A stretch of DNA of 64,000 nt from an uncultured Nitrospiraceae bacterium (GTDB taxonomy: Bacteria > Nitrospirota > Thermodesulfovibrionia > Thermodesulfovibrionales > UBA9159). Within the stretch, counting starts at the first letter, position 1; every line of letters starts with the position of its first letter. The notes beneath the pieces are model-generated. The model was not told where the DNA came from and did no database searches. It saw nothing but the letters and a program-made list of their open reading frames with translations. The stretch spans positions 18,903 through 82,902 of the forward strand of contig CAYYWY010000002.1 of the NCBI GenBank assembly GCA_964475485.1, written 5' to 3'. Below are positions 12,446 through 26,544 of the stretch, in pieces. The position numbers and the translations under genes were made by a program.

Positions 12446-14767
12446 ATGAAAGGGTGGATACTGAAGGAACGATGGAGGATCATCCCCATAGGGGTCCTCA
12501 TCACTGCAGTCCCCCTCCTGGGGCTCTCGGCATTCGTGAATCTCCAGTTGACCGCCGCGCTCAAGGACAGGCTGATAAAGGAAACACGATGGTTTTCGAC
12601 CGTAGCGGCTCATCATGTTCAGGAAAGATTAAGGAGTGATATAAACTACGGCAGGGCTTACGCAACAAGGCCTTATTTACTGGAAGGGTTAAGGAAAGGC
12701 GATAAAAAAGAATTGGACAGGCACCTTAAAGATATTGTTGATAATTCCTATACGTTAGAGAGGGCATTTATCACAAACCCTGCGGGAATACAACTCGCCA
12801 ATTATCCCGAAACACCGGAAACCCTCGGAAAGGACTTTTCAGACAGGGACTGGTACAAAGGGGTCACAAAGAACCGGGCGCCTTATGTCTCTGAGTTCTA
12901 TATGAGAATGGCAAAACCCCAGAGGTATCTTTTCGCGATAGCAATCCCCATGAGATTGGAAAGGAACGTAATAGGTATCCTTGTAATGCAGCCGAAAGAG
13001 GATTACATAAAAGAAGCCCTGGGCGGCATAGATATCGGCAAAGGACATATCTACGTAGTGGACAGGAAGGGACATCTTATCTATCACCAGGATTTTATAG
13101 TTGATAGAATTGTGGATTTTTCGCAGGTTCCGATAGTCCAGAAGGTGCTGAAAGGACGGGACGGTGTTGAAGAGATAATCGATCCGACAGACAAGGGGCC
13201 TGTTTTCTCGGCTTATCACCCTGTCAGGGAATGGGGGTGGGGAGTCGTTGTGGACAAGCCGGCGGAGCTCGTCCTTGCCCCTGTAAGAAGAGTCACGTTG
13301 TCGCTTGCCGGAATTACGGTGCTCATGCTGCTCCTCGGAGGTTTTTTTGCGTATAGATGGGCGGAATTGCTCGCAGCGTCAAAAAAGGCGGAGGAGGCAT
13401 TGCAGAAGAAATCCGAGGAGCTTGATCGCTATTTCACGAGCAGCCTAGATCTTCTTTGTATCGCAGACACCGACGGGTATTTCCGCCGTCTCAACCCGGA
13501 ATGGGAAAAGGCACTCGGCTATCCGGTCTGTGAACTGGAAGGCCGGCGTTTCCTTGAGTTTGTTCACCCCGACGATGTCAAATCCACCCTCGAAGCGGTG
13601 GCAAGCCTGTCATCTCATCAAAAGGAAGTTGCAAACTTCATCAACCGCTACAGGTGCAAAGACGGCTCTTACCGCTGGCTCGAATGGCGGTCGCATCCGG
13701 AAGGAAAGCTCATTTATGCAACTGCCCGTGACATCACCGAGCGCAGAAAACTCGAAGACGAGATTCTTATGCGGTCTGCTCAACTGGAGAAGGCCAACAG
13801 CGAACTTCATTCGATGAATGCGGAGCTTCAGGCAATGAACGAGGAGCTGCAGACCCAGCAGAAGGAACTTCAGGAGGCAAATGCAAGACTTGCCGAGGTT
13901 TCTATGGCAAAGTCGGACTTTCTTGCCAATATGAGCCATGAACTCAGGACGCCTTTGAACTCAATCATCGGTTTTTCGGAGGTTCTCAAGGACGAACTCT
14001 ACGGGAAGCTGAATGAGAAACAGCGGGAATATGTGGACGATATTATGGGAAGCGGCAGGCATCTGCTTGATCTCATCAACGATATCCTGGACCTCGCCAA
14101 GGTGGAGTCGGGCAAAATGGAGCTGGAGGCGAGTGTTTTTTCTCTGAACAGGGTCCTTCATACCTCAATGACGATGATGAAAGAGAAGGCAACGAAGCAC
14201 TGCATCGCCATGAACCTCGAGATCGAGGAAGGCGCTGATACCGAAATAGAGGCGGATGAGAGGAAGTTCAAGCAGATCATGTTCAATCTCCTCAGTAACG
14301 CGGTGAAGTTCACTCCTGACGGGGGGAGCGTGAGCGTGAAGGCGCGGAGGTTGTCATTGCGAGGCGCCATGCCTGCCGGCAGGCAGGAGGCCGAAGCAAT
14401 TTCAAGAGGCGAGATTCCTCGCTTCGCTCGGAATGAGGATCTTGTCGGCGATTTCGTTGAAGTTTCTGTCTCAGACACCGGCATCGGGATTAAAGCAGAG
14501 GACATCCCGAAGCTCTTCAAGGAGTTCACCCAGCTCGAATCGCCCTATACAAAGGATTACGAAGGGGCCGGTCTCGGCCTTGCACTCACGAAGAAGCTCG
14601 TCGAGCTCCACGGCGGCACGATATGGGTCGAGAGCGAGCCGGACAAAGGCAGCAGGTTCGCTTTCACAATCCCGGTGAAGCAGCCGTTAAAGCCTGAAAG
14701 CCTCCACGTTGTGGAAAAGACGCGAAGATGTGGATGCGGCGGTCGCAGCAGCAAAAGAAGCGTATAA
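12446..14767 (+). CDS. sensor histidine kinase: TM, double-Cache periplasmic domain, TM, PAS, coiled coil, HisKA, HATPase_c
   Basis: Cache-type DRDWYK region, PAS (FVHPDD...RYRCKDGSYRWLEW), H-box MSHELRTPLNS, N box NAVKFTP, G boxes DTGIGI / GAGLGLAL. Confidence 0.9.
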   Translation: MKGWILKERWRIIPIGVLITAVPLLGLSAFVNLQLTAALKDRLIKETRWFSTVAAHHVQERLRSDINYGRAYATRPYLLEGLRKGDKKELDRHLKDIVDNSYTLERAFITNPAGIQLANYPETPETLGKDFSDRDWYKGVTKNRAPYVSEFYMRMAKPQRYLFAIAIPMRLERNVIGILVMQPKEDYIKEALGGIDIGKGHIYVVDRKGHLIYHQDFIVDRIVDFSQVPIVQKVLKGRDGVEEIIDPTDKGPVFSAYHPVREWGWGVVVDKPAELVLAPVRRVTLSLAGITVLMLLLGGFFAYRWAELLAASKKAEEALQKKSEELDRYFTSSLDLLCIADTDGYFRRLNPEWEKALGYPVCELEGRRFLEFVHPDDVKSTLEAVASLSSHQKEVANFINRYRCKDGSYRWLEWRSHPEGKLIYATARDITERRKLEDEILMRSAQLEKANSELHSMNAELQAMNEELQTQQKELQEANARLAEVSMAKSDFLANMSHELRTPLNSIIGFSEVLKDELYGKLNEKQREYVDDIMGSGRHLLDLINDILDLAKVESGKMELEASVFSLNRVLHTSMTMMKEKATKHCIAMNLEIEEGADTEIEADERKFKQIMFNLLSNAVKFTPDGGSVSVKARRLSLRGAMPAGRQEAEAISRGEIPRFARNEDLVGDFVEVSVSDTGIGIKAEDIPKLFKEFTQLESPYTKDYEGAGLGLALTKKLVELHGGTIWVESEPDKGSRFAFTIPVKQPLKPESLHVVEKTRRCGCGGRSSKRSV
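14353..14437. repeat. dispersed palindromic repeat family B, copy inside the HATPase_c domain of the kinase (in-frame)
   Basis: gtcattgcgag...gcctgccggcaggcagg...cgaagcaat...cgcttcgctcggaatgag. Reverse-complement relative of the element at 24838-24930. Encodes SLRGAMPAGRQEAEAISRGEIPRFARNED. Confidence 0.7.
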
Positions 14768-15147
14768 AGCCTGGAGAAGGAAAAAGGCGGGCGCTTGTTA
14801 TCGACGATGATCCGTTGGCCCTCATGACGGTGGAAGGTGCCCTGCTGTCAAAGGGGTTCAGCGTCAGGAAGGCTGTCAGCGGAAAGGAAGGCATTGAGGC
14901 TGCAAAGGAAGAACAGCCTGATCTTATCGTGCTCGACCTTGTGATGCCGGACCTGAACGGTTTTGAGGTAGTGGACGTTCTCAGGGCGCAAGAGGGAACG
15001 GCATGCGTGCCCGTCGTCATTCTCACAGGGATGAGCCTTTCCGCGGCAGAGAAGGAGAGGCTCGGAGGCATGGCGGCGCACATAGTGAAAAAGGGTGATC
15101 TCACAAGGGAAGGGTTTATCGATGTTGTTGAAAACATGCTGTCATAA
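14728..15147 (+). CDS. single-domain response regulator
   Basis: ALVIDDD, DLVMPDLNG, T and K positions conserved. Overlaps the upstream kinase by 40 nt. Confidence 0.85.
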   Translation: MWMRRSQQQKKRIKPGEGKRRALVIDDDPLALMTVEGALLSKGFSVRKAVSGKEGIEAAKEEQPDLIVLDLVMPDLNGFEVVDVLRAQEGTACVPVVILTGMSLSAAEKERLGGMAAHIVKKGDLTREGFIDVVENMLS

Positions 15148-15200
15148 GCAGCAATCGGCACTAAGGCGTATCGAAGCAGGAGGGGACCGGAGAAGCAAGG

Positions 15201-15569
15201 ATGGCGAAGAAGATACTTGTGATTGAGGACAACAGGAAGAACCGAACGCTGATAAGGGATGTGCTGAGCTATTACGGCTTCGAGATCATCGAGGCGTCAA
15301 ACGGAGAAGAGGGTGTAAAGAAGGGCAAGGAGCATCGCCCGGACCTTATCCTTCTCGATATCCAGATGCCTGTAATGGACGGATTCACCGCCCTTCAGGT
15401 GTTCAGGGGTATACCTGAAACGAGAGATGTGAAGGTAATAGCCCTTACCTCTTTTGCGATGGCAGGGGACAGGGAGAAGATACTTAATGCGGGCTTTGAC
15501 GACTATATCGCAAAGCCGGTCGATACCCGGCGGCTGCCGCTGATCATTAAGAAGCATTTGAGAGGATGA
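15201..15569 (+). CDS. single-domain response regulator (CheY/DivK-like)
   Basis: [32 protein letters not shown]. Confidence 0.9.
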
Positions 15570-15576
15570 GAATCAT

Positions 15577-16845
15577 ATGAAGAAAGTGCTTGTTGTGGAT
15601 GATGAGGATTCGGTGAGGAACACCCTCGGCGAAGTCCTCGAAAGTTACGGCTTTCAAGCGCTTCTTTCCTCCGACGGCGAGGAGGCAGTCGCCGCATTTG
15701 CCAGAGAAAGACCGGACGCTGTGCTACTTGACCTTCTAATGCCAGGGATGGCCGGCATGGAGACATTGCAGGAGCTGAGGAAGATCGACAGCAGCGTCCC
15801 CGTGATCATGATCAGCGCCCACGGAGATATTCCCAAGGCGGTGGAGGCGATAAAGCGGGGAGCATATGATTTTGTCAGTAAGCCGCCGCATTACAGCCTT
15901 CTCATCCTGACCATCAAGAGGGCAGTCGAAAAATCCGACTTGATGAAGAAATATAATAATGTCCGGGGAAATCTGCAGGCGCTGAACGAAGAACTGAAGA
16001 AACGCATCGGGCAGCTCGAAGAAGCGAAGCTGCTTGCCGAGGCGGCAAGCATGACAAAATCCGAATTCCTTGCGAACATGAGCCACGAACTCACGACCCC
16101 TCTTAATTCCATAATCGGATTCTCGCAGCTTCTTCAGGACGAGCTTTACGGTCATCTGAACGAGAAGCAGAAGGAGTACGTTGCAGAGATTCTGACCAGC
16201 GGCAAGCACCTGCTTGGACTGATTACGGGCATGCTCGACCTCTCGAAGATCGAGTCGGGAGCGATGGAGCTGAGACTGAGCACGTTTCTCCTGAGGGATG
16301 TCCTGAGGTCGTCGCTGATCATGTTCAGCGAGGAATCCATCCGGCGCAACCTCGACCTCAAACTCGAAATAGCGCAGGACGCCGATATTGAGATAGAGGC
16401 TGATTCTGGGAAATTGACCCAGATTATGTTCAACCTCCTCGGTAACGCGGTGAAGTTCACTCCCGACGGGGGCAGCGTCAGCGTGAAGGTGCGCTTAGCT
16501 CACGGCTCTGGGCGCATGGCTCACAGCGGCAAAGATGCAGACCGCGAACTGTCGGCCATGAACTATGAACTCGACCGGGATTCCATCGAAATTTCGGTCG
16601 TTGACACCGGTATCGGCATTCGGGCTGAAGATATCCCGCTGCTCTTTCATGAGTTCAAACAGCTCGAATCGCCGTATACAAAGACGCGTGATGGAATCGG
16701 AATCGGACTTGTTTTGGCAAAGAGGCTGGTGGAGCTCCACGGGGGAAAGATTTGCGTGGCCAGTGAAAGCGGGAAGGGCTCGCAATTTACGTTTGCAATT
16801 CCGACGACTCAACATAAGAAGAAGGAGGAGGTGCGAAAGGGGTGA
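15577..16845 (+). CDS. hybrid receiver + HisKA/HATPase_c histidine kinase
   Basis: N-terminal REC paralogous to that of the 9761 gene. The transmitter is paralogous to the 12446 kinase ([26 protein letters not shown] nearly identical at the DNA level). Confidence 0.9.
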
Positions 16846-16848
16846 AAT

Positions 16849-18372
16849 ATGAGCTCCTATAGGCCTGCAGTATTGTGTGTTGATGATGAGCCTGCAAACC
16901 TGAGGCTTCTGGAGGCATTCCTCGTGCCGAGGGGCTATGAAGTCATTAAGGCGGGCAACGGAGAAGAAGCTCTGGAGAGGATAGGCGACAGGCGGGTGGA
17001 CATCGTGCTCCTCGATGTGATGTTGCCCGAGATGAACGGCTTCGAGGCATGCAGGAGGATAAAGGAAGACAGGAGGTCTCGCAACATTCCCGTTATTCTC
17101 CTCACCGCACTCCGTTCCAGAGAGGACAGGATAAGGGGTATAGAGGCGGGGGCAGAGGACTTCATATCAAAGCCCTTTGATCAGGGAGAGGTACTCGCAC
17201 GGATCAGAATGCTCCTCAGAATCAAGGAACTCAACGACAGGCTGAACTTCGCGTATGACACGATGAACGACCTTATCTCGTACGGCGAAGACATAGCAAA
17301 GACCTTTGACCCCTTTCGCTTCGACCTGGGCACAGCCATTAATATCATCATAAGCCAGATAATCAGGAAGACGGATGAGGCCGTCCAGAAGCCCAAGACA
17401 ATCCTTGTCGGTATTTCGGATGAGAAGAGGAAACGCCGGTGGGTAAGGTATGAGTTCACTGAGGGCTTAATGAAAAGTGAGCTATTGGATATCGACGTTC
17501 ATAGATGTCTTCTCGTGGGAAACGGCGCTGCGTCGATGGACGTTATTGCAAATGAGGCGGACCTTGACAGGCCGGAGGTCCGCCCCCTTGTTGGGTTGCT
17601 TAGGCCTCTGGGAATACCGATCTCGAACCTCGTAAGCCATCACAGCAGCGAGTTTTGCATCATAGCATTGAATTACGGGTACGATGTCAGCTCTTATGAT
17701 GCGGCTGTGCTGAACAGCCTTGTCATGCAGAGCCTCTTCCTTAAGTCGCTTTCCGGTCAGATAAGGGAGACCGAGGATGCCTTTGCATATACGGTCCATG
17801 CCCTTGCGAGGGCCGCTGAAGTAAACGACGAGGACACGGGAAACCACATAAAGAGGGTAGGGGAGTATTGCGGCCTCATCGCCGGGAAACTGGGTATGCC
17901 GGAGAAATTCGTCAAGGTTATCAGGGTACAGGCCCAGATGCACGATGTGGGAAAGATACACATCCCGCCGGACATCCTCAAGAAGCCGGGCAAGCTTACG
18001 TCGGAGGAATTTGAGATGGTCAAGAAGCATCCAGAATTCGGGACGAAGATTCTCGGCGACCACATGCGGTTCACCATGGCGAGGAGCATCGCCCTTTCCC
18101 ACCATGAGCGATGGGACGGAAGCGGCTATCCCTTCGGCCTGAAAGGCGAAGACATCCCTTTTGAGGGCAGAATTCTGAACCTCGCTGATGTGTATGACGC
18201 CCTGAGAAACAGGAGGGTCTACAAGCCGGCCTTCGACCATGAGACGACATACAGGATCATCACCGAGGGCGATGGAAGAACAATGCCACATCATTTTGAT
18301 CCGGATGTCCTCAGGGTATTCAGGGATGCCGGGTCGGAGTTCGAGGAGATATACGAGACGCTTAGAGATTAG
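16849..18372 (+). CDS. response regulator with HD-GYP output domain (c-di-GMP phosphodiesterase, RpfG-like)
   Basis: REC (CVDDEP, DVMLPEMNG), about 170-aa middle region, HDVGK...HHERWDGSGYPFGL. Confidence 0.85.
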   Translation: MSSYRPAVLCVDDEPANLRLLEAFLVPRGYEVIKAGNGEEALERIGDRRVDIVLLDVMLPEMNGFEACRRIKEDRRSRNIPVILLTALRSREDRIRGIEAGAEDFISKPFDQGEVLARIRMLLRIKELNDRLNFAYDTMNDLISYGEDIAKTFDPFRFDLGTAINIIISQIIRKTDEAVQKPKTILVGISDEKRKRRWVRYEFTEGLMKSELLDIDVHRCLLVGNGAASMDVIANEADLDRPEVRPLVGLLRPLGIPISNLVSHHSSEFCIIALNYGYDVSSYDAAVLNSLVMQSLFLKSLSGQIRETEDAFAYTVHALARAAEVNDEDTGNHIKRVGEYCGLIAGKLGMPEKFVKVIRVQAQMHDVGKIHIPPDILKKPGKLTSEEFEMVKKHPEFGTKILGDHMRFTMARSIALSHHERWDGSGYPFGLKGEDIPFEGRILNLADVYDALRNRRVYKPAFDHETTYRIITEGDGRTMPHHFDPDVLRVFRDAGSEFEEIYETLRD

Positions 18373-18394
18373 ACCGCTTGAGCTTGTTCCCGTC

Positions 18395-19696
18395 TCATCG
18401 TGTGATGCGTACGTCAAGGAGATGTGTGGAACACGAGATGCATGGGTCGTAGGCCCTTATGGCCCGTTCGATGCCCTTTTTGAGGGACGCCGTGTCGAGG
18501 TGAGTATTGAGCTGCACATAATGCCTGAGTTCTGCTTCCATCATGGAAAGGTTTTGAGAAGTGGGAGGGATAAGTCCGCAGTGGAGCACCTTGCCCTCGT
18601 TGTTCAGTTCGTATCTGTGGATAAGGATGCCTCTCGGGGCCTCGGTTATCCATACCGCCTCGCCGGCCCTGGGCTCGAAGGCAACGGAGGGTCTATCCGG
18701 TTTCTCATAATCTTTGATGATCCGCAGCGCCTCGTGAAACGCGTACGCCATCTCTACCGATCTTGCGACAATGCTCATCTGCGTGTTCGTAATGGGGAGC
18801 GTCACCGGGGATCCTTCGATCCTCTCTCTGATTTCTGAAGGTAATCTCTCGTAGTTAAGGTTGAGCCGTGCTATCGGGCCGACGAGGTACGGGCTCAGGG
18901 AGGAGTTCCTCTTGATCCCGGAGTATAGGGCCGTGGAGTCCCCCACCTGGTATTCCTGCAGAATTTTCATAAAGCCGTCCATCGACTCATCAAGTCCCCT
19001 GTTCGAGATGACACGACCTTCGTTCATGGGATATTCCCCGGCATGACTCAGCGAAACATACTCCACGTCGCGGACGTTGTCATTAAAGGGCAAACGCGAC
19101 GCCCATTCTATCTCCGTGAGAGACTCCTCGTATGCGCGTTGAAGTTCGCCGCGAATGGAGGCGAGCTCCCTTTTCTCCGGGACTCTGTAAAATCCTCCGA
19201 TCCTGACCGACACAGGATGTACCGACCTTCCGCCGAGGATGGACAGTATCCTGTTGCCGAGTCGCTTAAAGCCCAGACCCCTTCTTGCAACGGGAATATA
19301 CTCTCTGTCGGACCAGGCGCTTTCAATCCCGTAAAAGTCGGGTCCGTGAAGGAGATAGACGTGCAATGCATGGCTCTCTATCCACTCCCCTGCGTACAGG
19401 AGTCTCCTCAGGTCCCTTACCGGCTTTTCTATCTCGATTCCGAAAATCTTTTCCATGGCATGGACGGAACTCATCTGGTAAGCTACCGGGCATATACCGC
19501 AGATTCGTGCCGTGAAGTCAATCACATCCGAGCACGGCCTTCCTCTGACGAGGGATTCGAAAAATCTCGGCGCCTCGAAGATCCTCATACGGAGTCCCGT
19601 CAGCTTGCCATCCGCGATTTCTACGGAAACCCCTCCTTCTCCCTCGACCCTCGCTAAGTAGTCGATCTTGATGACCTTATTCACCTTGTCCGTCAC
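18395..19696 (-). CDS. cytoplasmic group-3b NiFe hydrogenase large (alpha) subunit
   Basis: RICGICPVAY N-terminal motif and DPCISCSTH C-terminal motif, 433 aa. Operon order beta-gamma-delta-alpha as in sulfhydrogenases. Confidence 0.85.
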   Translation of the reverse strand: MTDKVNKVIKIDYLARVEGEGGVSVEIADGKLTGLRMRIFEAPRFFESLVRGRPCSDVIDFTARICGICPVAYQMSSVHAMEKIFGIEIEKPVRDLRRLLYAGEWIESHALHVYLLHGPDFYGIESAWSDREYIPVARRGLGFKRLGNRILSILGGRSVHPVSVRIGGFYRVPEKRELASIRGELQRAYEESLTEIEWASRLPFNDNVRDVEYVSLSHAGEYPMNEGRVISNRGLDESMDGFMKILQEYQVGDSTALYSGIKRNSSLSPYLVGPIARLNLNYERLPSEIRERIEGSPVTLPITNTQMSIVARSVEMAYAFHEALRIIKDYEKPDRPSVAFEPRAGEAVWITEAPRGILIHRYELNNEGKVLHCGLIPPTSQNLSMMEAELRHYVQLNTHLDTASLKKGIERAIRAYDPCISCSTHLLDVRITR

Positions 19697-19698
19697 GA

Positions 19699-20463
19699 TT
19701 ACGATGTGTTCTCTATCTTAGCCTTCCTGTACGCATATGTGTTCATCTTGTCAAGCAAAAGCGTGCACTCATTTTGGGTGAATCCCCTTTTCTGGAAGAC
19801 GGCAAGAAGGGATTGGATATTTGAATTCTCCTTCGGTCCGAAACATCCGTAGCAAGGTCTCTCGAAAGATGGGCATAGGACCCCGCATCCGGTCCGCGTG
19901 ACCGGACCCAGACAGGGCTCTCCCTTCGAGACGAGGAGGCAGGGTATCCCCCGGTCCTTACATTCCATGCAAAGGCTGTATCTCGGCATCCCGGGTTTCT
20001 TGCCGATAAGAGAAGATACGAGCGTTTCGGAGACGGCAGTCTTATCGACGGGACATCCCCATAATTCGTAGTCGACGTATACGTGATCCGATACCGGTGT
20101 TGAGGTTGGAAGGGCTGAGATACTTTTGGGAGAGGGATATACATATTTCTTGTATGCGGAAAGATTCGCCCAGTTTCTCAATGCCTGCAGTCCTCCGGAG
20201 GTGGCGCACGCCCCTATGGTTATGAGATGCCTCGACCTCTCTCTGATATTCACTATCTCTTCCTTTTGGCGGTCCGTCGATACGGAGCCCTCGACGATGC
20301 CGATCTCGAACTGACCTCTGAGAGGCCTGTCCGTGGCCTCCCGGAAATAAGAGATGTCGTACAGCTCAATAAGATCCAGAAGCGTGTCTTCCAGGTTCAG
20401 GATGGCGAGCTGACAGCCGTCGCATGAGGTAAGTTTGAATACACCGATCTTCGGCTTCTTCAT
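19699..20463 (-). CDS. group-3b NiFe hydrogenase small (delta) subunit
   Basis: Nuo 20-kDa-like fold: LTSCDGCQ, GACATSGG, plus a Cys-rich C-terminal FeS region. Confidence 0.85.
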   Translation of the reverse strand: MKKPKIGVFKLTSCDGCQLAILNLEDTLLDLIELYDISYFREATDRPLRGQFEIGIVEGSVSTDRQKEEIVNIRERSRHLITIGACATSGGLQALRNWANLSAYKKYVYPSPKSISALPTSTPVSDHVYVDYELWGCPVDKTAVSETLVSSLIGKKPGMPRYSLCMECKDRGIPCLLVSKGEPCLGPVTRTGCGVLCPSFERPCYGCFGPKENSNIQSLLAVFQKRGFTQNECTLLLDKMNTYAYRKAKIENTS

Positions 20464-20464
20464 T

Positions 20465-21313
20465 TCAGATCTCCTTTATCCCGAAAAATTCCTCGATTTC
20501 TGAAAACCTGAAAACAGGGCCGTCCTTGCACACGAATTTTGGACCGAAAAAACAATGCCCGCATATTCCCATGCCGCAATTCATATTCCGTTCCATGGAT
20601 AAAAAGATCTTCTCTCCTGCCACGCCTTTCAGGATCAACTCCTTTACCACCGTCTGCATCATTATCTCCGGCCCGCATATGAACACCAAGACATTAAGTG
20701 GATCGAACGGAGCTTTGCCCAGAAGCCGTGTTATGAGACCCACATCTCCGTGCCAGTATTCTTCGGGGTCGGCCTTGTCGACCGTAAGAAAAACTTCGAA
20801 AATATCTCTGTACCTTGGAAACTCGTCCCTGAAAATTATATCTTTCGGCGCCTTTGTTCCATAGAGTATCATATGTCTTGAGGCTCCGGTAGAATGTCTG
20901 TATTTTCCAGAAAGCTTCATTACATGCCTGATTGCGGACCGCAAAGGAGCAATGCCCAACCCCCCTGCAATGATCATCACATCCCTCCCTTCCATCTCTT
21001 CCAAAGGCCATCCGTTGCCGAAGGGGCCTCTCATCCCCAGTACATTCCCGGCGCTCAGCCTCGATATGGCAGTTGTAACGTCACCTGCGACCCTGATGGT
21101 GTGCATGAGGTCATGGTCTGACGGAGCAGAGCTTATGGATATCGCTGCCTCGCCGACACCAGGGACGGACAGCATGTTGAACTGCCCCGGGATGAAAGAG
21201 TACGCCTTTTCGATATCCCTGTTTACAATCTTCAGGGCATATGTGGCGGTATCCCTTGTTTCCTTCTTTATCCACTTTATTCTTGCCTCAAAGGGTATGG
21301 ACTTGTCGTACAT
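20465..21313 (-). CDS. group-3b hydrogenase gamma subunit (FAD/NAD(P)-binding oxidoreductase with 2Fe-2S)
   Basis: Ferredoxin-NADP reductase-like fold (GGLGIAPL) and C-terminal CGMGICGHCF cluster motif. Confidence 0.8.
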   Translation of the reverse strand: MYDKSIPFEARIKWIKKETRDTATYALKIVNRDIEKAYSFIPGQFNMLSVPGVGEAAISISSAPSDHDLMHTIRVAGDVTTAISRLSAGNVLGMRGPFGNGWPLEEMEGRDVMIIAGGLGIAPLRSAIRHVMKLSGKYRHSTGASRHMILYGTKAPKDIIFRDEFPRYRDIFEVFLTVDKADPEEYWHGDVGLITRLLGKAPFDPLNVLVFICGPEIMMQTVVKELILKGVAGEKIFLSMERNMNCGMGICGHCFFGPKFVCKDGPVFRFSEIEEFFGIKEI

Positions 21314-21339
21314 TGTTCAGTTTCCTTCTTATGCAGAGG

Positions 21340-22467
21340 TTATTGCCTAATCGCCTCAAGCTCTTCGGTAATATCGATTCCGGCAGGGCACCATGTGATG
21401 CACCTGCCGCAACCCACACAGTCAGGCGAACCGTGCTGTTCTATACTGTAAGCAAGTTTGTGGGTCATCCAGTGCCTGTACCGTGCGCTCCGGGATGGTC
21501 TGAAGTTGCCGCCATGGACTCTCGCAAAATTTACGGAAAAACATGAGTCCCACGTTCTCACCCTTGTCCCGGAGATCTCCGCTTTTTTCGAAATACCGGG
21601 CAACAAAAGGTAATCATAGCTTGAATTGCAGAAGCACGTGGGACAAACCTGGGTGCAATTGCCGCATTCAAGGTCCAGTTTTGCGACCTCTGCCCACCGG
21701 GGATGCTCAAGATTCCTATAGATTAACGCCGGCAGTTCATGTGTACCGACTGATTTCCTAATCAACCGTATGCAACTCTCGATCGCGGAGGTCTTCTTGT
21801 CCCTGTCGCTGTTATCGATTTCCTCTGACGGCAAAGCATCCATTATCTCCTTTCCTCTTGCTGTTCCAGCTTCAAGGAGGAAATACTCATCGATTTCCGA
21901 GAGCGCCACATCAAATGCATCCCGGATCTCAGGACCGGTTCCCATGGAATGGCAGAAGCAATTCCCGCCGGGATACACGCAATTGACGCCGATTACCAGT
22001 AAATCCTTTCTCAAAGAACTGTAAGTGGAATCCCTGACCGCTCCTCCGAGGAATACCTTATCGAGTTTCTTGAGGGCTGCGATATCGCATGCCCTCACAC
22101 CGATGAAGGCGAGGGGCTTATCTTCCTTGACGACGGGCTTTACATAAAGGCCCTTTTTCGATTTCCTGAACGTGAATAGTTCTTCCATGAAAGGAGGGTG
22201 CAGAAACCGTTTAAATGAATCAGGCCCCACAGAGAATGAAAACATAGTTTTCGCAGGTCCTGCAGTCGGCTGGGATGATTGAGGGCTGCTGAGCTTGTAT
22301 ATGCCTTTGCCCTGGCGGTCTCTATAGCCCGCAGGTATGTCGTCAAAATCGATGTCTTTGAGGACTATGACATCATTTTCGATCTTAGGGCCGATTATCC
22401 TGTGAGAACCCTTGACCTTCTCAAAGACAAGCCTCAAAACGTCTTTCCTTATCTTAATTTCTTTCAT
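21340..22467 (-). CDS. group-3b hydrogenase beta subunit (4Fe-4S dicluster protein)
   Basis: CGNCTQVCPTC and CVGCGRCITWCP ferredoxin motifs, 375 aa. First gene of the four-gene operon. Confidence 0.8.
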   Translation of the reverse strand: MKEIKIRKDVLRLVFEKVKGSHRIIGPKIENDVIVLKDIDFDDIPAGYRDRQGKGIYKLSSPQSSQPTAGPAKTMFSFSVGPDSFKRFLHPPFMEELFTFRKSKKGLYVKPVVKEDKPLAFIGVRACDIAALKKLDKVFLGGAVRDSTYSSLRKDLLVIGVNCVYPGGNCFCHSMGTGPEIRDAFDVALSEIDEYFLLEAGTARGKEIMDALPSEEIDNSDRDKKTSAIESCIRLIRKSVGTHELPALIYRNLEHPRWAEVAKLDLECGNCTQVCPTCFCNSSYDYLLLPGISKKAEISGTRVRTWDSCFSVNFARVHGGNFRPSRSARYRHWMTHKLAYSIEQHGSPDCVGCGRCITWCPAGIDITEELEAIRQ

Positions 22468-22565
22468 GAGTTCATGCTTGCGTTATAGGCAGAAACATAG
22501 CAATAAGAGACGTTCACGAACCCCTATGAATCATCACTATAAGTTTACATTAGAACAGCCGAAAA

Positions 22566-22880
22566 TCATAGCTCGAAGGAATCGCCCTTTGAAGGAACAT
22601 GGGCAACGAACCCGAAGCGCTCCTTGATCATGCGGGCAAAGGAGAGGGATGTCTCCTCTTCCCCGTGCACCACAAAAACCCGGGGGCTGTTCCTGAATGC
22701 CTAGAGCCAGTCCAGGAGTTCCTTTTGGCCGGCATGAGCAGAGAAGCCTCCAAGAGTATAAGTCTTTGCCTTTACCGCGATGTCTTCTCCGAAGATGGAG
22801 ACGGTTTTTGCGCCGTCCACTATCCTTCTGCCGAGGGTGCCCTGTCCTCCCGCACTCACCCGACCTGCGGGAAAAGTGCT
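22566..22880 (-). pseudogene. C-terminal remnant of a beta-CASP MBL-fold RNA-metabolising hydrolase, with an in-frame TAG
   Basis: Own minus-strand translation: ...GQGTLGRRIVDGAKTVSIFGEDIAVKAKTYTLGGFSAHAGQKELLDWL*AFRNSPRVFVVHGEEETSLSFARMIKERFGFVAHVPSKGDSFEL*. TAG at 22703-22701. About 350 N-terminal residues are absent and there is no start codon. Confidence 0.7.
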
Positions 22881-22939
22881 TTATAAAACAACAGCTTGCA
22901 TTATACATGAACAACATTTATAATTCTACAGGGTGACGT

Positions 22940-23518
22940 ATGGGGGACACTAAATATTGTCTCTGCTGCGGTGATAATGTGCCGTATAATTATGTCGAAA
23001 GGCATGAGAGAAGAGAGCTCACATGTGTTTATTGCGGCTTCACTCTCGATGTCCAGAAGCTCTGGGAGCCTTCGGAAACCAGCGAGGGCACCGTCCTCAT
23101 CGCGGAAGATTCGAAATATGTGAGGGACATCATCACCGACGTCGTGAAGGCCAAGAGATTCTCGACCAATGTCATGGCCTTTGAAAACGGTCTGGAGCTC
23201 ATCACCGCTTTCTCGAAGCTTGTCTCCGACAACTCCAGGGCGGATCTCGCCATCATCGATCTCAACATGCCGGTGATGGATGGGATAACCGCGGCGAGGA
23301 CGATCCGCGCCATCGAGTCCCAGCACAAGATAGCCGCCACTCCCGTCGTTTTTTTCTCTGCCACCAAGGCGGACGACGCACTGAAGGCGCAGATGGACAT
23401 CCTCAGTCCTGCAAGCTATGTGAACAAGGGCTCTGACCCCGACCCCGACAAACTTGCCGAAAGGGTTGAGCAACTGGTCGGTTATCTGATGGAGAAGTAC
23501 AGGAAGGGTTCTCAGTGA
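22940..23518 (+). CDS. response regulator with N-terminal CxxC...CxxC zinc-ribbon-like module
   Basis: CLCCGDNVPY...CVYCGF followed by REC (VLIAEDS, DLNMPVMDG, K). Confidence 0.75.
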   Translation: MGDTKYCLCCGDNVPYNYVERHERRELTCVYCGFTLDVQKLWEPSETSEGTVLIAEDSKYVRDIITDVVKAKRFSTNVMAFENGLELITAFSKLVSDNSRADLAIIDLNMPVMDGITAARTIRAIESQHKIAATPVVFFSATKADDALKAQMDILSPASYVNKGSDPDPDKLAERVEQLVGYLMEKYRKGSQ

Positions 23519-23652
23519 CGCCGAAGAAATGAAGCACGCGCCTTCATCGGAAGTGCAGCGCTGAACCCAAAGAATGCGCCCCAGGTAATTTAATGATAGT
23601 CGCTTTCCGATGAATCAGATTTTCCACCCCATCGATCCTTACCCTCATAGCC

Positions 23653-23682
23653 TTGACTTTTGCGTCTTTCATGCCAGATAAT
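23653..23682 (+). promoter_or_regulatory. candidate sigma-70 promoter of tpiA-secG (TTGACT, 18 nt, GATAAT)
   Basis: ttgact 23653-23658 and gataat 23677-23682. The ATG at 23693 is only 10 nt downstream and has no SD. Confidence 0.35.
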
Positions 23683-23692
23683 TATAAGTCTT

Positions 23693-24448
23693 ATGATGCG
23701 CAGACCGTTCATAGCAGCGAACTGGAAGATGAACAAGACCGTGCCCGAGGCGATGGATTTCATCCATTCCTTTCTCCCTTCTGTTGAGGATGTGAAGGAT
23801 GCGGACATAGCGATTGCACCGGCTTTTACCTGCCTTTTCGCCATCGCAGAAAGGCTTGTAGGAACGAACGTGAAACTCTCCGCCCAGAACGTCTTTTACG
23901 AGGAGAAAGGCGCCTTTACCGGGGAGATTTCCCCTGCCATGCTCCTCGATGTGGGGTGCGAGTACGTTATCATAGGACATTCGGAGAGGAGACAGTACTT
24001 CGGGGAGACGGAGGAGGTCGTGAACAAGAAGGCGAAGGTCGCCCAGAAAAACGGACTTCAGGTGATCTTCTGCATCGGTGAAACCCTGAAGGAAAGGGAA
24101 GCCGAAAGGACATGCGAACTGCTGCACACCCAGATCGCACAGGGTCTCAAAGACGTGGAGCCCGGAAAGCTTGTTGTGGCATATGAGCCTGTGTGGGCCA
24201 TCGGAACGGGCAGAACCGCAACGCCAGAGCAGGCCCAGGAGGCACATGCATATATCAGGAAGGAGTTAAGGACGATATACAAGGACGGCGCCGACGCCGT
24301 ACGGATACTCTATGGCGGAAGTGTCACGCCTGAAAACATCGACAGCCTCATGGCATGTCCGGATGTCGACGGGGCACTGGTTGGAGGCGCAAGCCTCAAA
24401 CCGGGGAGTTTCGCAGGAATCGTGAAATTCAAAAGGGGGAACTCATGA
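23693..24448 (+). CDS. tpiA: triose-phosphate isomerase
   Basis: MMRRPFIAANWKMNKT, IGHSERR, AYEPVWAIGTG, YGGSV. Confidence 0.92.
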   Translation: MMRRPFIAANWKMNKTVPEAMDFIHSFLPSVEDVKDADIAIAPAFTCLFAIAERLVGTNVKLSAQNVFYEEKGAFTGEISPAMLLDVGCEYVIIGHSERRQYFGETEEVVNKKAKVAQKNGLQVIFCIGETLKEREAERTCELLHTQIAQGLKDVEPGKLVVAYEPVWAIGTGRTATPEQAQEAHAYIRKELRTIYKDGADAVRILYGGSVTPENIDSLMACPDVDGALVGGASLKPGSFAGIVKFKRGNS

Positions 24449-24819
24449 TCACTTTTCTCACAATAATACATATCATTGTCAGTTTCTTTCTGATATTCAT
24501 CGTCCTCATTCAGAGCAGCAAGGGAGCCGAACTGGGCGCTGCCTTCGGAGGCTCAAGCCAGACTCTTTTCGGGAGCCGTGGCGCTGCAACGTTTCTGAGC
24601 AAGCTCACGACCATTTCTGCCGTCGTCTTCATGATGACTTCGCTTTTGCTCGCCATTGCTTCCGTAAAAGGAGGCTCCGTGGTGAAGCAGACAACGCCCA
24701 TAGAGCAGAAGACCGGAGTTCCTGCCCAGCAGCCTTTGCAGGCGCCGGGGCAGCAGGGTCCGATCCAGGCTCCCACTCAGCAGGCACCTGCTCCGCAAAG
24801 CCCTCAGCCTGCAAAATAG
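24445..24819 (+). CDS. secG: preprotein translocase subunit SecG (with Gln/Pro-rich C-terminal tail)
   Basis: ATG 24445 overlaps the tpiA stop. MITFLTIIHIIVSFFLIFIVLIQSSKGAELGAAFGG is the canonical SecG N-terminus. Confidence 0.9.
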   Translation: MITFLTIIHIIVSFFLIFIVLIQSSKGAELGAAFGGSSQTLFGSRGAATFLSKLTTISAVVFMMTSLLLAIASVKGGSVVKQTTPIEQKTGVPAQQPLQAPGQQGPIQAPTQQAPAPQSPQPAK

Positions 24820-24837
24820 GGTTTTACCTTAATCGAT

Positions 24838-24930
24838 GTCATTGCGAGGAACGGAGTGACGAAGCAATCTGATCGCTCAGAGATCGCTTCGCCTTCCTTC
24901 TTGCCGGCAGGCAGGAAGGCTCGCAATGAC
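24838..24930. repeat. dispersed palindromic repeat family B, full copy with perfect 11-bp terminal inverted repeats
   Basis: gtcattgcgag (24838-24848) and ctcgcaatgac (24920-24930). Internal palindromes gaagcaatct/agatcgcttc and ccttcc..gccggc..ggaagg. Confidence 0.75.
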
Positions 24931-26544
24931 GGCATCTTTAATGAGCATCGAACTTTTCCTTGCGTAATTTTATTATTACTTTCCATGATCGCGGGCGTAG
25001 CATTGTCCTCCTGCTCACGGGAGCCCGAGATAAGAAGGCCGTTCGATATTACCGTTGGCTTTCTCGCTGATGCAAAACGGCTCCTTCCCCTCCTTGCGTC
25101 TGACAGCGCCTCGGGGGAAATCAGCGGACATATCTTCAACGGCCTTACAAAATACGATAAGGATATTAAAATCACCGGCGACCTCGCCGAGTCGTGGGAG
25201 GTGAGCAGGAACGGACTCGAGATAATCTTCCATCTCAGAAAGGGTGTGAAGTGGCATGACGGCGCAGAGTTCACCTCCGACGATGTCGTCTTCACGTTTA
25301 AAACCGTGACGGATCCGAAGGTTCCAACTCCCTACGGCAGCAATTACGGTCCTGTCCGTAAAGTGGAGGCTATCGACAGATATACCGTCAGGGTCACCTA
25401 CAGCGAACCCTATGCACCTGCCCTGGAGTCCTGGGGAATGGGTATCATCCCGAGGCATATACTCGAGGGGAAGGACATTGCGGCTGTTGAGTACAACAGG
25501 AACCCTGTAGGGACAGGCCCTTACAGACTAAAGGAGTGGGTCACCGGACAGAAGATCGTCCTTGAGGCGTTTGAGGAATATTTTGAGGGCAGGCCCGGAA
25601 TCAATAAATATATCGCGCGCGTTATCCCGGATACTGCCACCATGTTTCTGGAACTGAAATTCGGCGGGATCGATTACATGGGATTGACGCCTCCCCAGTA
25701 TAAGCTCCAGTCCGGTTCGGAACGGTTCAACAGGTTTTTTCAGAAGTTTCGCTATCCCTCCTTCGGGTATACCTATATGGGATATAACCTCCAGGACCCC
25801 CGTTTCAGCGACAAACGTGTGAGGAGGGCGATCTCCCATGCCATAAATAAGAACGATATCATCGAAGGGGTACTTCTGGGTTACGGCACACCATGCACAG
25901 GCCCGTTTCCGCCCGAGTCATGGGCATTCAATGCAGACGTAAAGTATCCCGAATACGACACGGAGAAAGCAAAGAGCCTTCTCCGGCAGGCAGGGTGGGC
26001 TGTGGGGCAGGACAATCTCTTCTACAAGGACGGGAAACCATTCAGGTTCACCGTGCTTATCAACCAGGGAAACGAGGCAAGGAGGAAGACCGCAGAGATC
26101 ATCAAGGAGAGCCTGAAAAAGATCGGAATCGACATGGAGATAAAGGTCCTTGAGTGGCAGGCTATGCTTCATGAGTTCATCGACAAAAGGAAATTCGAGG
26201 CGGTGATCATGGGCTGGGCTCTTTCAAGGGACCCGGATATTTATGACATCTGGCATTCCTCAAAGACCAAGGAAGGGGAGTTCAACTTCATCTCCTACAG
26301 GAACGATGAGGTGGACAGGCTTCTCCTTGAAGGCAGGAGGACCTTCGATTTCCAAAAGAGGAAAGTCATATATCGCGAGATTCACCGCATCCTCGCCGAG
26401 GACCAGCCGGTCACTTTTCTCTTTGTTCCCGACGCCCTGCCTGTCCTTCACAAGCGCTTCAAGGGAGTGGAAAAAGCGCCTCTGGGCATATGGTACGACT
26501 TTATCAGGTGGCATGTGCCTCAAAACAAGGCGCAGTGGTATTAA
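24856..26544 (+). CDS. ABC transporter substrate-binding protein, family 5 (peptide/nickel type); start uncertain
   Basis: Lipobox-like LLLLSMIAGVALSSC, then a typical OppA/DppA/NikA fold. The only in-frame start upstream of the signal peptide is GTG 24856, which lies inside the repeat. ATG 24985 would leave a 9-residue signal. Confidence 0.8.
   Translation: MTKQSDRSEIASPSFLPAGRKARNDGIFNEHRTFPCVILLLLSMIAGVALSSCSREPEIRRPFDITVGFLADAKRLLPLLASDSASGEISGHIFNGLTKYDKDIKITGDLAESWEVSRNGLEIIFHLRKGVKWHDGAEFTSDDVVFTFKTVTDPKVPTPYGSNYGPVRKVEAIDRYTVRVTYSEPYAPALESWGMGIIPRHILEGKDIAAVEYNRNPVGTGPYRLKEWVTGQKIVLEAFEEYFEGRPGINKYIARVIPDTATMFLELKFGGIDYMGLTPPQYKLQSGSERFNRFFQKFRYPSFGYTYMGYNLQDPRFSDKRVRRAISHAINKNDIIEGVLLGYGTPCTGPFPPESWAFNADVKYPEYDTEKAKSLLRQAGWAVGQDNLFYKDGKPFRFTVLINQGNEARRKTAEIIKESLKKIGIDMEIKVLEWQAMLHEFIDKRKFEAVIMGWALSRDPDIYDIWHSSKTKEGEFNFISYRNDEVDRLLLEGRRTFDFQKRKVIYREIHRILAEDQPVTFLFVPDALPVLHKRFKGVEKAPLGIWYDFIRWHVPQNKAQWY

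What the first reader, a model, noticed from the sequence alone, without database searches (positions are those of the whole stretch)
14353..14437. A palindromic repeat (family B) is inserted in-frame in the ATP-binding domain of the Cache-PAS histidine kinase
The kinase carries 85 nt between the N-box strand ([18 protein letters not shown]) and the G1 box (VSVSDTGIGI): gtcattgcgag-gcgccatgcctgccggcaggcaggaggc-cgaagcaatttc...cgcttcgctcggaatgag. This matches the reverse complement of the element at 24838-24930 module for module. It adds about 28 residues (SLRGAMPAGRQEAEAISRGEIPRFARNED) to a loop that is normally about 10 residues long, without breaking the frame. Repeats with the cattgcgag / ctcgcaatg ends are widely seen as orphan hypothetical peptides in anaerobe genomes. 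Here one sits inside a conserved catalytic domain.
Basis: seen in the sequence. Interest (0 to 1): 0.6.

Follow-up and report, generated by a model that had tools for sequence, protein, structure and literature searches.

The report
Palindromic repeat translated inside a kinase
An 85-base hairpin-forming repeat from a dispersed family sits in frame in a floppy surface turn of a working sensor kinase, and the same turn in related kinases holds many different hairpin repeats, so it is a recurrent landing site.

Summary
Window 14353-14437 is a full-length, slightly decayed copy of a modular nested-hairpin repeat (GTCATTGCGAG...CTCGCAATGAC) with about 43 loci in this 2.6-Mb Nitrospirota genome. 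A family HMM built without it scores it E=1.3e-5.

It is read in frame as about 29 residues at the tip of the beta-hairpin between the N box and G1 box of HATPase_c. This is not the ATP lid. The model shows an unstructured loop there.

The kinase is not a pseudogene. A syntenic orthologue from an independent assembly carries the same insert, and dN/dS is 0.04-0.08 in the flanking catalytic domain.

The insert is not unique:
- The neighbouring paralogue has a decayed insert at the same turn.
- 104 of 116 closest database homologues have inserts of at least 12 residues there.
- These come from more than ten repeat families, some nested.
- Insert-free outgroups show the short ancestral turn.
- Near-identical family-B copies sit at the same nucleotide in kinases whose flanks are saturated at synonymous sites.

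In-frame palindromic repeats are known from Rickettsia RPEs and intragenic REPs. This scan's earlier AI notes describe the same kinase-loop phenomenon on other genomes. I found no published description of the hot spot.

The parts
12446..14767 (+). Kinase K1: dCache_1, PAS, HisKA, HATPase_c, 773 aa. This is the host gene of the insert.
   Evidence: ORF list; Pfam; dN/dS 0.18 against syntenic orthologue L103.
14353..14437 (+). Family-B nested-hairpin repeat, in frame. It is read as (L)SLRGAMPAGRQEAEAISRGEIPRFARNE.
   Evidence: RNA fold -39.5 kcal/mol, z -3.2. z -8.0 against same-length windows of its own gene.
14353..14363 (+). Left terminus GTCATTGCGAG.
   Evidence: Exact match to the family terminus.
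14364..14391 (+). Optional hairpin module GCGCCATGCCTGCCGGCAGGCAGGAGGC. Its central 12 nt (about 14371-14382) are missing in the orthologue L103.
   Evidence: The same module occupies the same place in dispersed copies C14:53027, C33:326 and C12:350. It also occurs alone at other loci. The 12-nt gap is shown.
14392..14403 (+). Inner left arm CGAAGCAATTTC.
   Evidence: Family alignment.
14411..14426 (+). Inner right arm in its variant form, GAGATTCCTCG followed by CTTCG.
   Evidence: The GAGATTCTTCG variant also occurs in intergenic copies of other Nitrospirota.
14427..14437 (+). Degraded right terminus CTCGGAATGAG (canonical CTCGCAATGAC).
24838..24930 (.).
   Evidence: RNA fold -48.8 kcal/mol, z -6.2. 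nhmmer E=3.9e-10 (as C2:43740-43832).
15577..16845 (+). Paralogous kinase K2: REC, HisKA, HATPase_c. It is 59% identical to the K1 core.
16495..16578 (+). 28-codon insert at the same beta-hairpin turn of K2 ([28 protein letters not shown]). It has decayed and has no other copy in this genome.
   Evidence: Fold z -0.19. dN/dS 0.83 against L103.
14720..14757 (+). 38-nt insertion relative to orthologue L103 (position uncertain by about 5 nt). It shifts the frame and separates the receiver domain from the kinase.
14728..15147 (+). Receiver-domain ORF. It is fused to the kinase in L103 and stands alone here.
   Evidence: dN/dS 0.22.

Best explanation
The 85-nt segment is a copy of a small, non-autonomous, nested-hairpin repeat (family B). 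It lies at the one place in the kinase catalytic core that tolerates extra length: the turn between the first two beta-strands after the N-box helix.

It is transcribed and translated with the gene and adds a roughly 29-residue unstructured surface loop. The kinase core remains functional.

The insertion predates the split from the nearest sequenced relative. The turn is a recurrent landing site. Across this kinase clade it has been filled, re-filled and pruned by hairpin repeats of many families. The existing hairpin probably attracts further hairpin elements. Only in-frame, stop-free outcomes survive.

Shown: family membership, position, frame, age relative to L103, purifying selection on the kinase, clade-wide occupancy by different repeat families, and nested elements.

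Inferred: mobilisation in trans by an unidentified hairpin-recognising enzyme, hairpin-directed targeting, and a neutral or near-neutral effect on the protein.
For: Family membership:
- nhmmer E=1.3e-5 over the full length.
- 43 loci in the genome.
- 52 exact termini against 1 for the control.

Position:
- PDB alignments break exactly at the insert.
- The AF2 model (pLDDT 85.9) has strands 159-169 and 199-208 flanking a coil of pLDDT 44-65.
- The fold is a canonical kinase core.

Gene alive, insert old:
- Syntenic orthologue L103, from an independent assembly, carries the same element minus 12 nt.
- dN/dS is 0.18 overall, 0.04 and 0.08 in the CA segments either side of the insert, and 0.24 in the insert.

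Hot spot:
- Insert-free outgroups have N-to-G1 spacing of 34 aa. The clade has 38-82 aa.
- 104 of 116 best homologues have loop inserts of at least 12 aa.
- Length variation is confined to this loop: SD 10.7 aa, against 0.5 aa over the 165 aa upstream.
- Loop DNA is palindromic in 18 of 34 cases at z below -2.
- The inserts of G013 and G001 match dispersed repeats of their own genomes.
- Sister genes carry different families.
- Nested elements occur.

Repeated or refreshed acquisition:
- The elements in K1, L105 and L106 are 84-92% identical and start at the same nucleotide. Their flanking third codon positions are only 38-40% identical.
- L104 has a canonical copy 15 nt away in another frame.

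In-frame copies of B also occur in a PAP2/PMT_2 membrane protein and in an Eco57I-type methylase of the same genome.
Against: - No expression or protein data could be obtained.
- The mobilising enzyme is unknown. The two Y1-transposase-like genes in the genome are not flanked by B copies.
- No target-site duplication is visible.
- Hairpin-directed targeting rests on nested examples and on occupancy statistics, not on an observed insertion event.
- The insert's dN/dS of 0.24 is lower than neutral. It rests on 28 codons, so some constraint on the loop cannot be excluded.
- The 38-nt frameshift downstream shows that the gene has suffered at least one disruptive change.
Confidence: 0.85

Rival explanations
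1. A single ancient insertion is kept similar to the dispersed family by short gene conversion. One B element entered an ancestral kinase module. Its position is inherited. Its sequence is repeatedly overwritten from dispersed genomic copies, so no site-specific insertion is needed.
For: - B-type cassettes in K1, L103, L005, L105 and L106 start at the same nucleotide in the same frame.
- In G005, which has almost no B termini (1, equal to the control), the kinase copy is strongly decayed (fold z -1.0; nhmmer E=0.006).
- G000, with 52 termini, keeps a well-folding copy.
- Third codon positions inside the element are about 85% identical between K1 and L105 (read from the sequences), against 40% in the flanks. 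This is conservation at the nucleotide level, not the peptide level.
Against: - It cannot explain the replacement of one repeat family by another in sister genes.
- It cannot explain the independent canonical copy 15 nt away in L104.
- No long conversion tracts are seen. Flank third-position identity of B-B pairs is 0.49 near the insert and 0.40 far from it, similar to B-other pairs.
- Conversion limited to a 64-nt element is plausible but was not demonstrated.
Confidence: 0.3
2. The loop, or the hairpin in the mRNA or DNA, has been recruited for a function. Examples are a partner-docking or insulation loop, a translational pause, or a regulatory RNA structure. It is kept for that reason.
For: - About 90% of clade members have an insert at this turn.
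- Insert dN/dS is 0.24 between K1 and L103.
- Synonymous codon choice is unusually uniform within 12 codons of the site: GAT 24 of 25, ATA avoided; Mann-Whitney p=4e-6.
Against: - Insert sequences are unrelated between sister genes, and lengths range from 4 to 41 aa.
- The K2 insert evolves neutrally (dN/dS 0.83).
- The model gives no structure for the loop.
- The small flanking hairpin shows no significant covariation: 88.4% of cells paired, against 87.9% in shuffles.
- A few clade members have almost no insert.
Confidence: 0.12
3. The kinase is a decaying pseudogene and the insert is one of its lesions.
For: A 38-nt insertion downstream breaks the fusion with the receiver domain. The right half of the element is degraded.
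Against: - The 773-aa frame is open with all catalytic boxes.
- dN/dS is 0.04-0.09 in DHp and CA against an orthologue that shares the insert.
- The receiver ORF keeps its own ATG and has dN/dS 0.22.
Confidence: 0.03
4. The similarity is due to chance, or the insert is an assembly artefact.
For: The 11-mer terminus alone is not significant within the 64-kb window: 3 hits, and 16 of 100 shuffles reach that number.
Against: - Genome-wide HMM E=1.3e-5 over the full length.
- The same insert at the same place in an independently assembled contig from another sample.
- B-type inserts in ten database homologues.
Confidence: 0.01

Closest known systems
Rickettsia palindromic elements (RPEs; Ogata et al. 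2000/2002, Claverie & Ogata 2003, as summarised in PMC10969869 and PMC3733652)
   Same: Both are dispersed palindromic repeats. Both are frequently inserted in frame into functional genes, where they add a surface peptide compatible with the fold. Both comprise several families per genome.
   Different: - The sequence family is different, and the host is a free-living Nitrospirota bacterium.
- Family B is shorter (65-107 nt, against about 150 nt for RPE-1).
- According to PMC3733652, short RPEs carry a CGTC tag that family B lacks.
- In the papers I read, RPEs are described as scattered over unrelated genes. They are not described as piling up at one loop of one protein family.
Intragenic REPs (GTAG- and CGTC-tagged repetitive extragenic palindromes; Di Nocera et al. 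2013, PMC3733652)
   Same: These are small hairpin repeats found inside ORFs, often as dimers encoding 20-30 residues. The same gene classes are hit in different species. Some inserts at this kinase loop in relatives are classic GTAG-tagged REP dimers, for example GTAGGGGCG...CGCCCCTAC in L004, L025, L032 and L035.
   Different: Family B has neither tag and is a nested double hairpin of about 70-95 nt. No RAYT flanked by B copies was found. The paper lists DNA-repair genes as recurrent hosts, not histidine kinases.
Bacterial MITEs with in-frame insertions (ERIC, RU-1/2/3, Nezha, Coxiella QMITE; PMC2759123, PMC5896051, PMC10969869)
   Same: Terminal inverted repeats (11 bp here), small size, no coding capacity of their own, and occasional translational fusions.
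   Different: No target-site duplication is visible, and no parent insertion sequence with the same ends was identified.
Naturally long beta-hairpin loops in HATPase_c of some hybrid kinases (for example PDB 7p8e_A)
   Same: The extra residues lie at the same structural position. About 55 residues separate the equivalent strands in 7p8e_A. This shows that the turn tolerates long insertions.
   Different: I know of no evidence that those loops derive from repeats.

Membership tests
Family B repeat of this genome (GTCATTGCGAG...CTCGCAATGAC nested hairpin) | Both 11-nt termini in inverted orientation | tested here: met
   The left terminus is exact. The right terminus is CTCGGAATGAG, with 2 mismatches.
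Family B repeat of this genome (GTCATTGCGAG...CTCGCAATGAC nested hairpin) | Inner inverted arms CGAAGCAATCTC / GAGATTGC(TTCG) and full-length profile match | tested here: met
   nhmmer with a profile built without this copy: model positions 2-76, 26 bits, E=1.3e-5 genome-wide. The inner right arm is the GAGATTC(C/T)TCG variant.
Class I histidine kinase (HisKA + HATPase_c) | H box, N box, G1, F and G2 boxes in an open frame | tested here: met
   HisKA 1.1e-24 and HATPase_c 1.9e-28. The motifs HELRTPLN, NLLSNAVKFT, DTGIGI, FKEF and GAGLGL are all in the ORF. The model matches GacS and HK853.
REP sensu Di Nocera 2013 (RAYT-associated) | GTAG or CGTC tetranucleotide at one end of a 20-40 bp palindrome | tested here: not met
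   The termini are GTCATTGCGAG / CTCGCAATGAC and the element is 65-107 nt.
REP sensu Di Nocera 2013 (RAYT-associated) | A RAYT (Y1 transposase) gene flanked by the cognate repeats | tested here: not met
   There are two PF01797 hits. The C65 copy is a disrupted gene flanked by GGGACACATCCCCTA repeats, not by B. The C20 ORF is packed between genes without repeats.
MITE | Terminal inverted repeats of at least 10 bp, small size, no ORF of its own | tested here: met
   11-bp TIRs, 65-107 nt.
MITE | Target-site duplication, and a parent IS with the same ends | tested here: inconclusive
   Flanks of about 40 copies show no duplication. There is only a frequent T before and A after the element. A parent IS was not searched for.
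Rickettsia palindromic elements | Sequence membership in an RPE family | not tested
   No RPE sequence was compared. The resemblance is in behaviour only (PMC10969869).
Rfam structured RNA families | Covariance-model match | tested here: not met
   There was no relevant hit at E up to 1 over 14000-25500, which includes both copies.

The most novel reading that the evidence does not exclude
The codons around the beta-hairpin turn of this kinase clade form a specific docking site that hairpin repeats of many unrelated families integrate into, or into each other's apex once one is present. These kinase genes would then act as self-perpetuating repeat traps. The flanking synonymous-site conservation would be the footprint of that target, and the resulting fast-changing surface loop might be used by the cell.
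Probability: 0.25. Interest if true: 0.75.

Novelty: new variant of a known kind. Interest (0 to 1): 0.55.

Why it matters
In-frame palindromic repeats have mostly been treated as a curiosity of Rickettsia and a few REP-rich genomes. Here a free-living Nitrospirota lineage shows one protein loop that has been occupied again and again by more than ten repeat families. The enzyme around it stays under strong purifying selection.

That has three consequences:
- It gives a natural, replicated system for asking how small hairpin repeats choose targets. Independent copies sit at the same nucleotide and as nested copies at hairpin apices.
- It allows a test of whether such repeats are kept similar by conversion.
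- It shows how much unstructured sequence a catalytic domain tolerates.

On the practical side, it warns annotators and structure predictors that long odd loops in HATPase_c domains of uncultured bacteria are often repeat DNA. It also marks a permissive site for engineering insertions into histidine kinases.

Tried and rejected
- Rfam search over both copies: nothing relevant.
- Full-text search for the terminal 11-mers: only chance primer matches.
- Link to a Y1/RAYT transposase: two candidates, neither associated with family B.
- Target-site duplications: none seen.
- Conserved small hairpin GATTTY-NNN-GAAATC just 3' of the insert. Codon choice is strongly skewed, but pair counts do not exceed shuffles. 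I therefore do not claim a structure.
- Long gene-conversion tracts between B-type kinases: not supported.
- Old shared orthology as the sole reason for the similarity of the K1, L105 and L106 elements: rejected. The element diverges 12% between K1 and L103, where flanks are 93% identical. It diverges only 8-16% among K1, L105 and L106, whose flanks are saturated.
- I first read the variant right arm as a frame-restoring 1-nt deletion shared by descent. This was withdrawn after the same variant turned up in intergenic copies of other genomes.
- Single-linkage clustering of loop peptides chains many word-hairpin types together (25 clusters, one with 47 members). The figure of more than ten families rests on inspection of the DNA and is approximate.
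Full report
**What is there.**
- Window 14353-14437 reads GTCATTGCGAG-GCGCCATGCCTGCCGGCAGGCAGGAGGC-CGAAGCAATTTC-AAGAGGC-GAGATTCCTCG-CTTCG-CTCGGAATGAG.
- It lies in the 773-aa ORF 12446-14767, whose domains are dCache_1, PAS, HisKA and HATPase_c.
- The longest inverted pair in the whole window joins 14353-14403 to 24880-24930: 51 nt, 80%.
- The window belongs to a 2.6-Mb, 76-contig genome.
- The nearest public records are Nitrospirota / Thermodesulfovibrionia metagenome-assembled genomes.

**The repeat family.**
- The terminus GTCATTGCGAG occurs 52 times in the genome, against 1 for the reversed control.
- Pairing left and right termini gives 28 full elements of 63-107 nt with a common plan:
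  - outer inverted repeat GTCATTGCGAG / CTCGCAATGAC;
  - inner inverted repeat CGAAGCAATCTC / GAGATTGC(TTCG or CACG);
  - a short loop;
  - one or two variable hairpin modules between the outer and inner arms.
- A profile from 19 copies, without the kinase copy, finds 43 distinct loci at E below 0.01. It hits the kinase insert over model positions 2-76 at E=1.3e-5.
- The CCTGCCGGCAGG module of the kinase copy sits at the same place in copies C14:53027, C33:326 and C12:350. It also occurs alone at other loci.
- The kinase copy folds less well than the intergenic copy at 24838-24930: -39.5 kcal/mol, z -3.2, against -48.8, z -6.2. Its inner stem and right terminus are damaged.
- It is still the most hairpin-like of the kinase-loop inserts I compared: z -8.0 against same-length windows of its own gene.
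- No target-site duplication is visible.
- Nothing in Rfam matches. The terminal words do not occur in the searchable literature in any relevant paper.
- The family is patchy among 40 relatives, from 0 to 228 termini per genome.
- It also occurs on plasmids of Novosphingobium, Methylocystis, Methylosinus and Aulosira. It is therefore cross-phylum and not restricted to anaerobes.

**Where it sits in the protein.**
- The Pfam HATPase_c match needs 142 residues for 111 model positions.
- Alignments to solved kinases (GacS 7z8n, HK853 2c2a/3dge) stop at ...GGSVSVKA and resume at VEVSVSDTG.
- An AlphaFold2 model of residues encoded by 13853-14740 was built with 39 homologues. It has mean pLDDT 85.9 and pTM 0.80.
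  - It places strands at 159-169 and 199-208 of that piece.
  - Between them is a coil of pLDDT 44-65.
  - The ATP lid is a separate low-confidence stretch further on.
- Foldseek returns canonical kinase cores.
- The insert is therefore at the tip of the first beta-hairpin of the CA domain, not in the ATP lid. One solved kinase, 7p8e_A, naturally has about 55 residues there.

**Is the gene alive?**
- The closest database homologue (P0002, 87% in the catalytic region) lies on a contig from another sample with the same gene order: UbiA, REC-HisKA_3, NarL-type regulator, CheR, this kinase, REC, REC-kinase, REC-HD.
- Its kinase carries the same element at the same position. It lacks only 12 nt at the centre of the CCTGCCGGCAGG hairpin and has 9 substitutions.
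- The insertion therefore predates the split, and it is not an assembly artefact.
- Against this orthologue, dN/dS values are:

| Region | dN/dS |
|---|---|
| Whole gene | 0.18 |
| DHp | 0.09 |
| CA before the insert | 0.04 |
| CA after the insert | 0.08 |
| The 28 aligned insert codons | 0.24 |

- The catalytic domain has thus been under strong purifying selection while carrying the insert.
- Against more distant homologues, synonymous sites are saturated and dN in the core is 0.16-0.25.
- One lesion exists. Relative to the orthologue, a 38-nt insertion at about 14720-14757 shifts the frame after the kinase core. The receiver domain, which is fused in the orthologue and in many homologues, is here a separate ORF with its own ATG (14728-15147). 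Its dN/dS is 0.22.
- The window gene also has a 363-nt PAS segment that the orthologue lacks.

**The turn is a hot spot.**
- The neighbouring paralogue K2 (15577-16845, 59% identical core) has a 28-codon insert at the same turn. It has no other copy in the genome, no remaining fold signal, and dN/dS 0.83.
- Among 80 related loci from public genomes, Brocadia, Methanolobus and Methanoperedens kinases have the minimal 34-35-aa N-to-G1 spacing.
- A clade of about 37 Nitrospirota and Desulfobacterota kinases, marked by [15 protein letters not shown] and DF[IV]EISV.DTGIGI, has 38-82 aa.
- The loop DNA of these genes consists of long palindromes of different kinds:
  - word hairpins built from GTTCAAAG, GTTCACAG, GTTCGGAG, GTTTCGAG or ATTTCGG units;
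  - GGGATTAGGGATT / CCCAATCCC elements;
  - CCCCTTAGATAAGGGG elements;
  - GTAG-tagged REP dimers (GTAGGGGCG...CGCCCCTAC);
  - family B.
- Of 34 loops of at least 36 nt, 18 fold more than 2 SD better than same-length windows of their own gene, and 11 fold more than 3 SD better.
- The inserts of G013 and G001 match 6-8 dispersed loci in their own genomes, and also a paralogous kinase there.
- Sister genes carry unrelated inserts. K1 (family B) groups with L003 (FKVQS type), with a 79% identical core.
- Nested arrangements exist. One example is a CCCC..GGGG element at the apex of a GTTCGGAG word hairpin in an 82-aa loop.
- In the 5.8-billion-protein collection, 104 of the 116 best hits with recognisable boxes have at least 12 extra residues in this loop. 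Ten of them are B-type.
- Length variation is confined to this loop: SD 10.7 aa, against 0.5 aa for the 165 residues before it.

**How the B copies in kinases relate.**
- I fetched DNA for three further B-type kinases.
  - L105 (a MASE3 kinase) and L106 (a HAMP-GAF-PAS kinase) carry the element starting at the same nucleotide as K1 (...GT|GTCATTGCG).
  - L104 carries a well-preserved canonical copy 15 nt further downstream in another reading frame. This is a separate event.
- The element is 84-92% identical among K1, L105 and L106 over 64 nt. The surrounding catalytic-domain codons are only 38-40% identical at third positions, which is saturation. Third positions inside the element are about 85% identical (read).
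- Between K1 and its close orthologue, the insert region (loop plus element, 90 aligned nt) is 88% identical where the flanks are 93% identical. A single copy therefore decays at an appreciable rate.
- The similarity among distant kinases thus cannot be simple old orthology. Two explanations remain:
  - near-identical elements entered the same spot independently;
  - an old copy is repeatedly overwritten from the dispersed pool.
- The right-half variant shared by these kinase copies (GAGATTCTTCG...CTCAGAATGAC) also exists in intergenic copies in 4 of 301 Nitrospirota genomes. It is therefore not a kinase-specific derived character.
- Flanks of B-B pairs show no long conversion tract: third-position identity is 0.49 near the insert and 0.40 far from it, and B-other pairs give 0.46 and 0.40.
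- G005 has essentially no B termini genome-wide, and its kinase copy is badly decayed. This fits the overwriting model.

**An unexplained detail.**
- Within 12 codons on either side of the insert, synonymous codon choice across the clade is much more uniform than elsewhere in the core: median skew 0.45 against 0.09, Mann-Whitney p=4e-6, and 9 of 16 columns in the top 15% against 7 of 94.
- Downstream, D-F-x-E-I is almost always GAT TTY NNN GAA ATC, a 6-bp hairpin. GAT is used 24 of 25 times, against 47% background, and ATA is avoided.
- Pair counts on the alignment do not exceed shuffles, however. I report the codon skew but do not claim a structure.

**Comparison with what is known.**
- In-frame palindromic repeats are established for Rickettsia RPEs, and for GTAG/CGTC-tagged REPs in Opitutus, Thauera and others. 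In those, dimers encode 20-30 residues and the same gene classes recur (PMC10969869; PMC3733652).
- Family B lacks those tags, lacks a linked Y1 transposase, and shows no duplication of the target.
- I found no paper describing a histidine-kinase loop as a multi-family repeat hot spot.
- Earlier AI notes of this scan report the same phenomenon on other genomes. These include different hairpins at the same spot in near-identical relatives, and a CATTGCGAG-type element in two tandem kinases. For this genome they report in-frame repeats in a GH3 enzyme and twice in an activase gene. I treat these as leads. The hot-spot evidence above was generated independently here.

**Verdict.**
- The single insertion is an ordinary example of a known kind of event.
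- The added value is the evidence that this turn of this kinase clade is a long-occupied, fast-turnover landing site for many hairpin repeat families, with near-identical elements at the same nucleotide of anciently diverged genes.

Noticed in passing
window 16495-16578: Paralogous kinase K2 has a 28-codon insert at the same beta-hairpin turn ([28 protein letters not shown]). It looks like a decayed GCTCA-word hairpin. It has no other copy in the genome and evolves neutrally (dN/dS 0.83 against the syntenic orthologue).
   Followed up: partly
window 14720-14757: A 38-nt insertion relative to the syntenic orthologue shifts the frame just after the kinase core. It turns a hybrid kinase-receiver gene into a kinase plus a separate receiver ORF (14728-15147) with a 40-nt overlap. 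It is bounded by GAAAAG/CAAAAG direct repeats.
   Followed up: partly
window 13419-13781: The PAS domain of K1 (363 nt) is absent from the otherwise collinear orthologue L103. A 21-nt heptad unit near 13835 is present only in L103. The sensor and kinase modules of this family appear to be reshuffled often. G011 has the same sensor with a different kinase module, and G013 has the closest kinase module with an unrelated sensor.
   Followed up: partly
G000:C34:4329-4409 and G000:C8:42626-42657 (same genome, outside the window): Two further in-frame family-B copies. One is a full element (VIARSETTEQPHSSGTASPFNCGTRNDT) inside a PAP2 + PMT_2 membrane glycosyltransferase. The other is a half element (SSLRAGGEAIPD) inside the Eco57I-type methylase domain of a 1000-aa restriction-modification protein.
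   Followed up: partly
window 14290-14352 and 14438-14480, and the same positions in about 37 related kinases: Synonymous codon usage is unusually uniform within 12 codons of the insertion site. Downstream the pattern is GAT TTY NNN GAA ATC, and upstream it is often GTGCG..CGCAC. The hairpin reading is not supported by covariation.
   Followed up: yes
G000:C65:820-1563 (locus L101): A disrupted IS200-like / RAYT-like Y1 transposase gene is flanked by inverted GGGACACATCCCCTA repeats. This is a different repeat family from B.
   Followed up: partly
G000, about 15 loci (for example C1:87836, C2:105017, C7:7540): The commonest family-B subfamily has conserved sequence beyond both termini (caaatccagcgataagaaat | element | cgtcctggcaacgtattgat or agactggacaaacaattagc). 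It is therefore part of a larger composite repeat.
   Followed up: no
G000, at least 6 loci (for example C1:1173, C38:11257, C6:33928, C64:1863): The mini-palindrome (G)CCTGCCGGCAGG(C), which forms a module of the kinase insert, also occurs on its own outside family-B elements.
   Followed up: no
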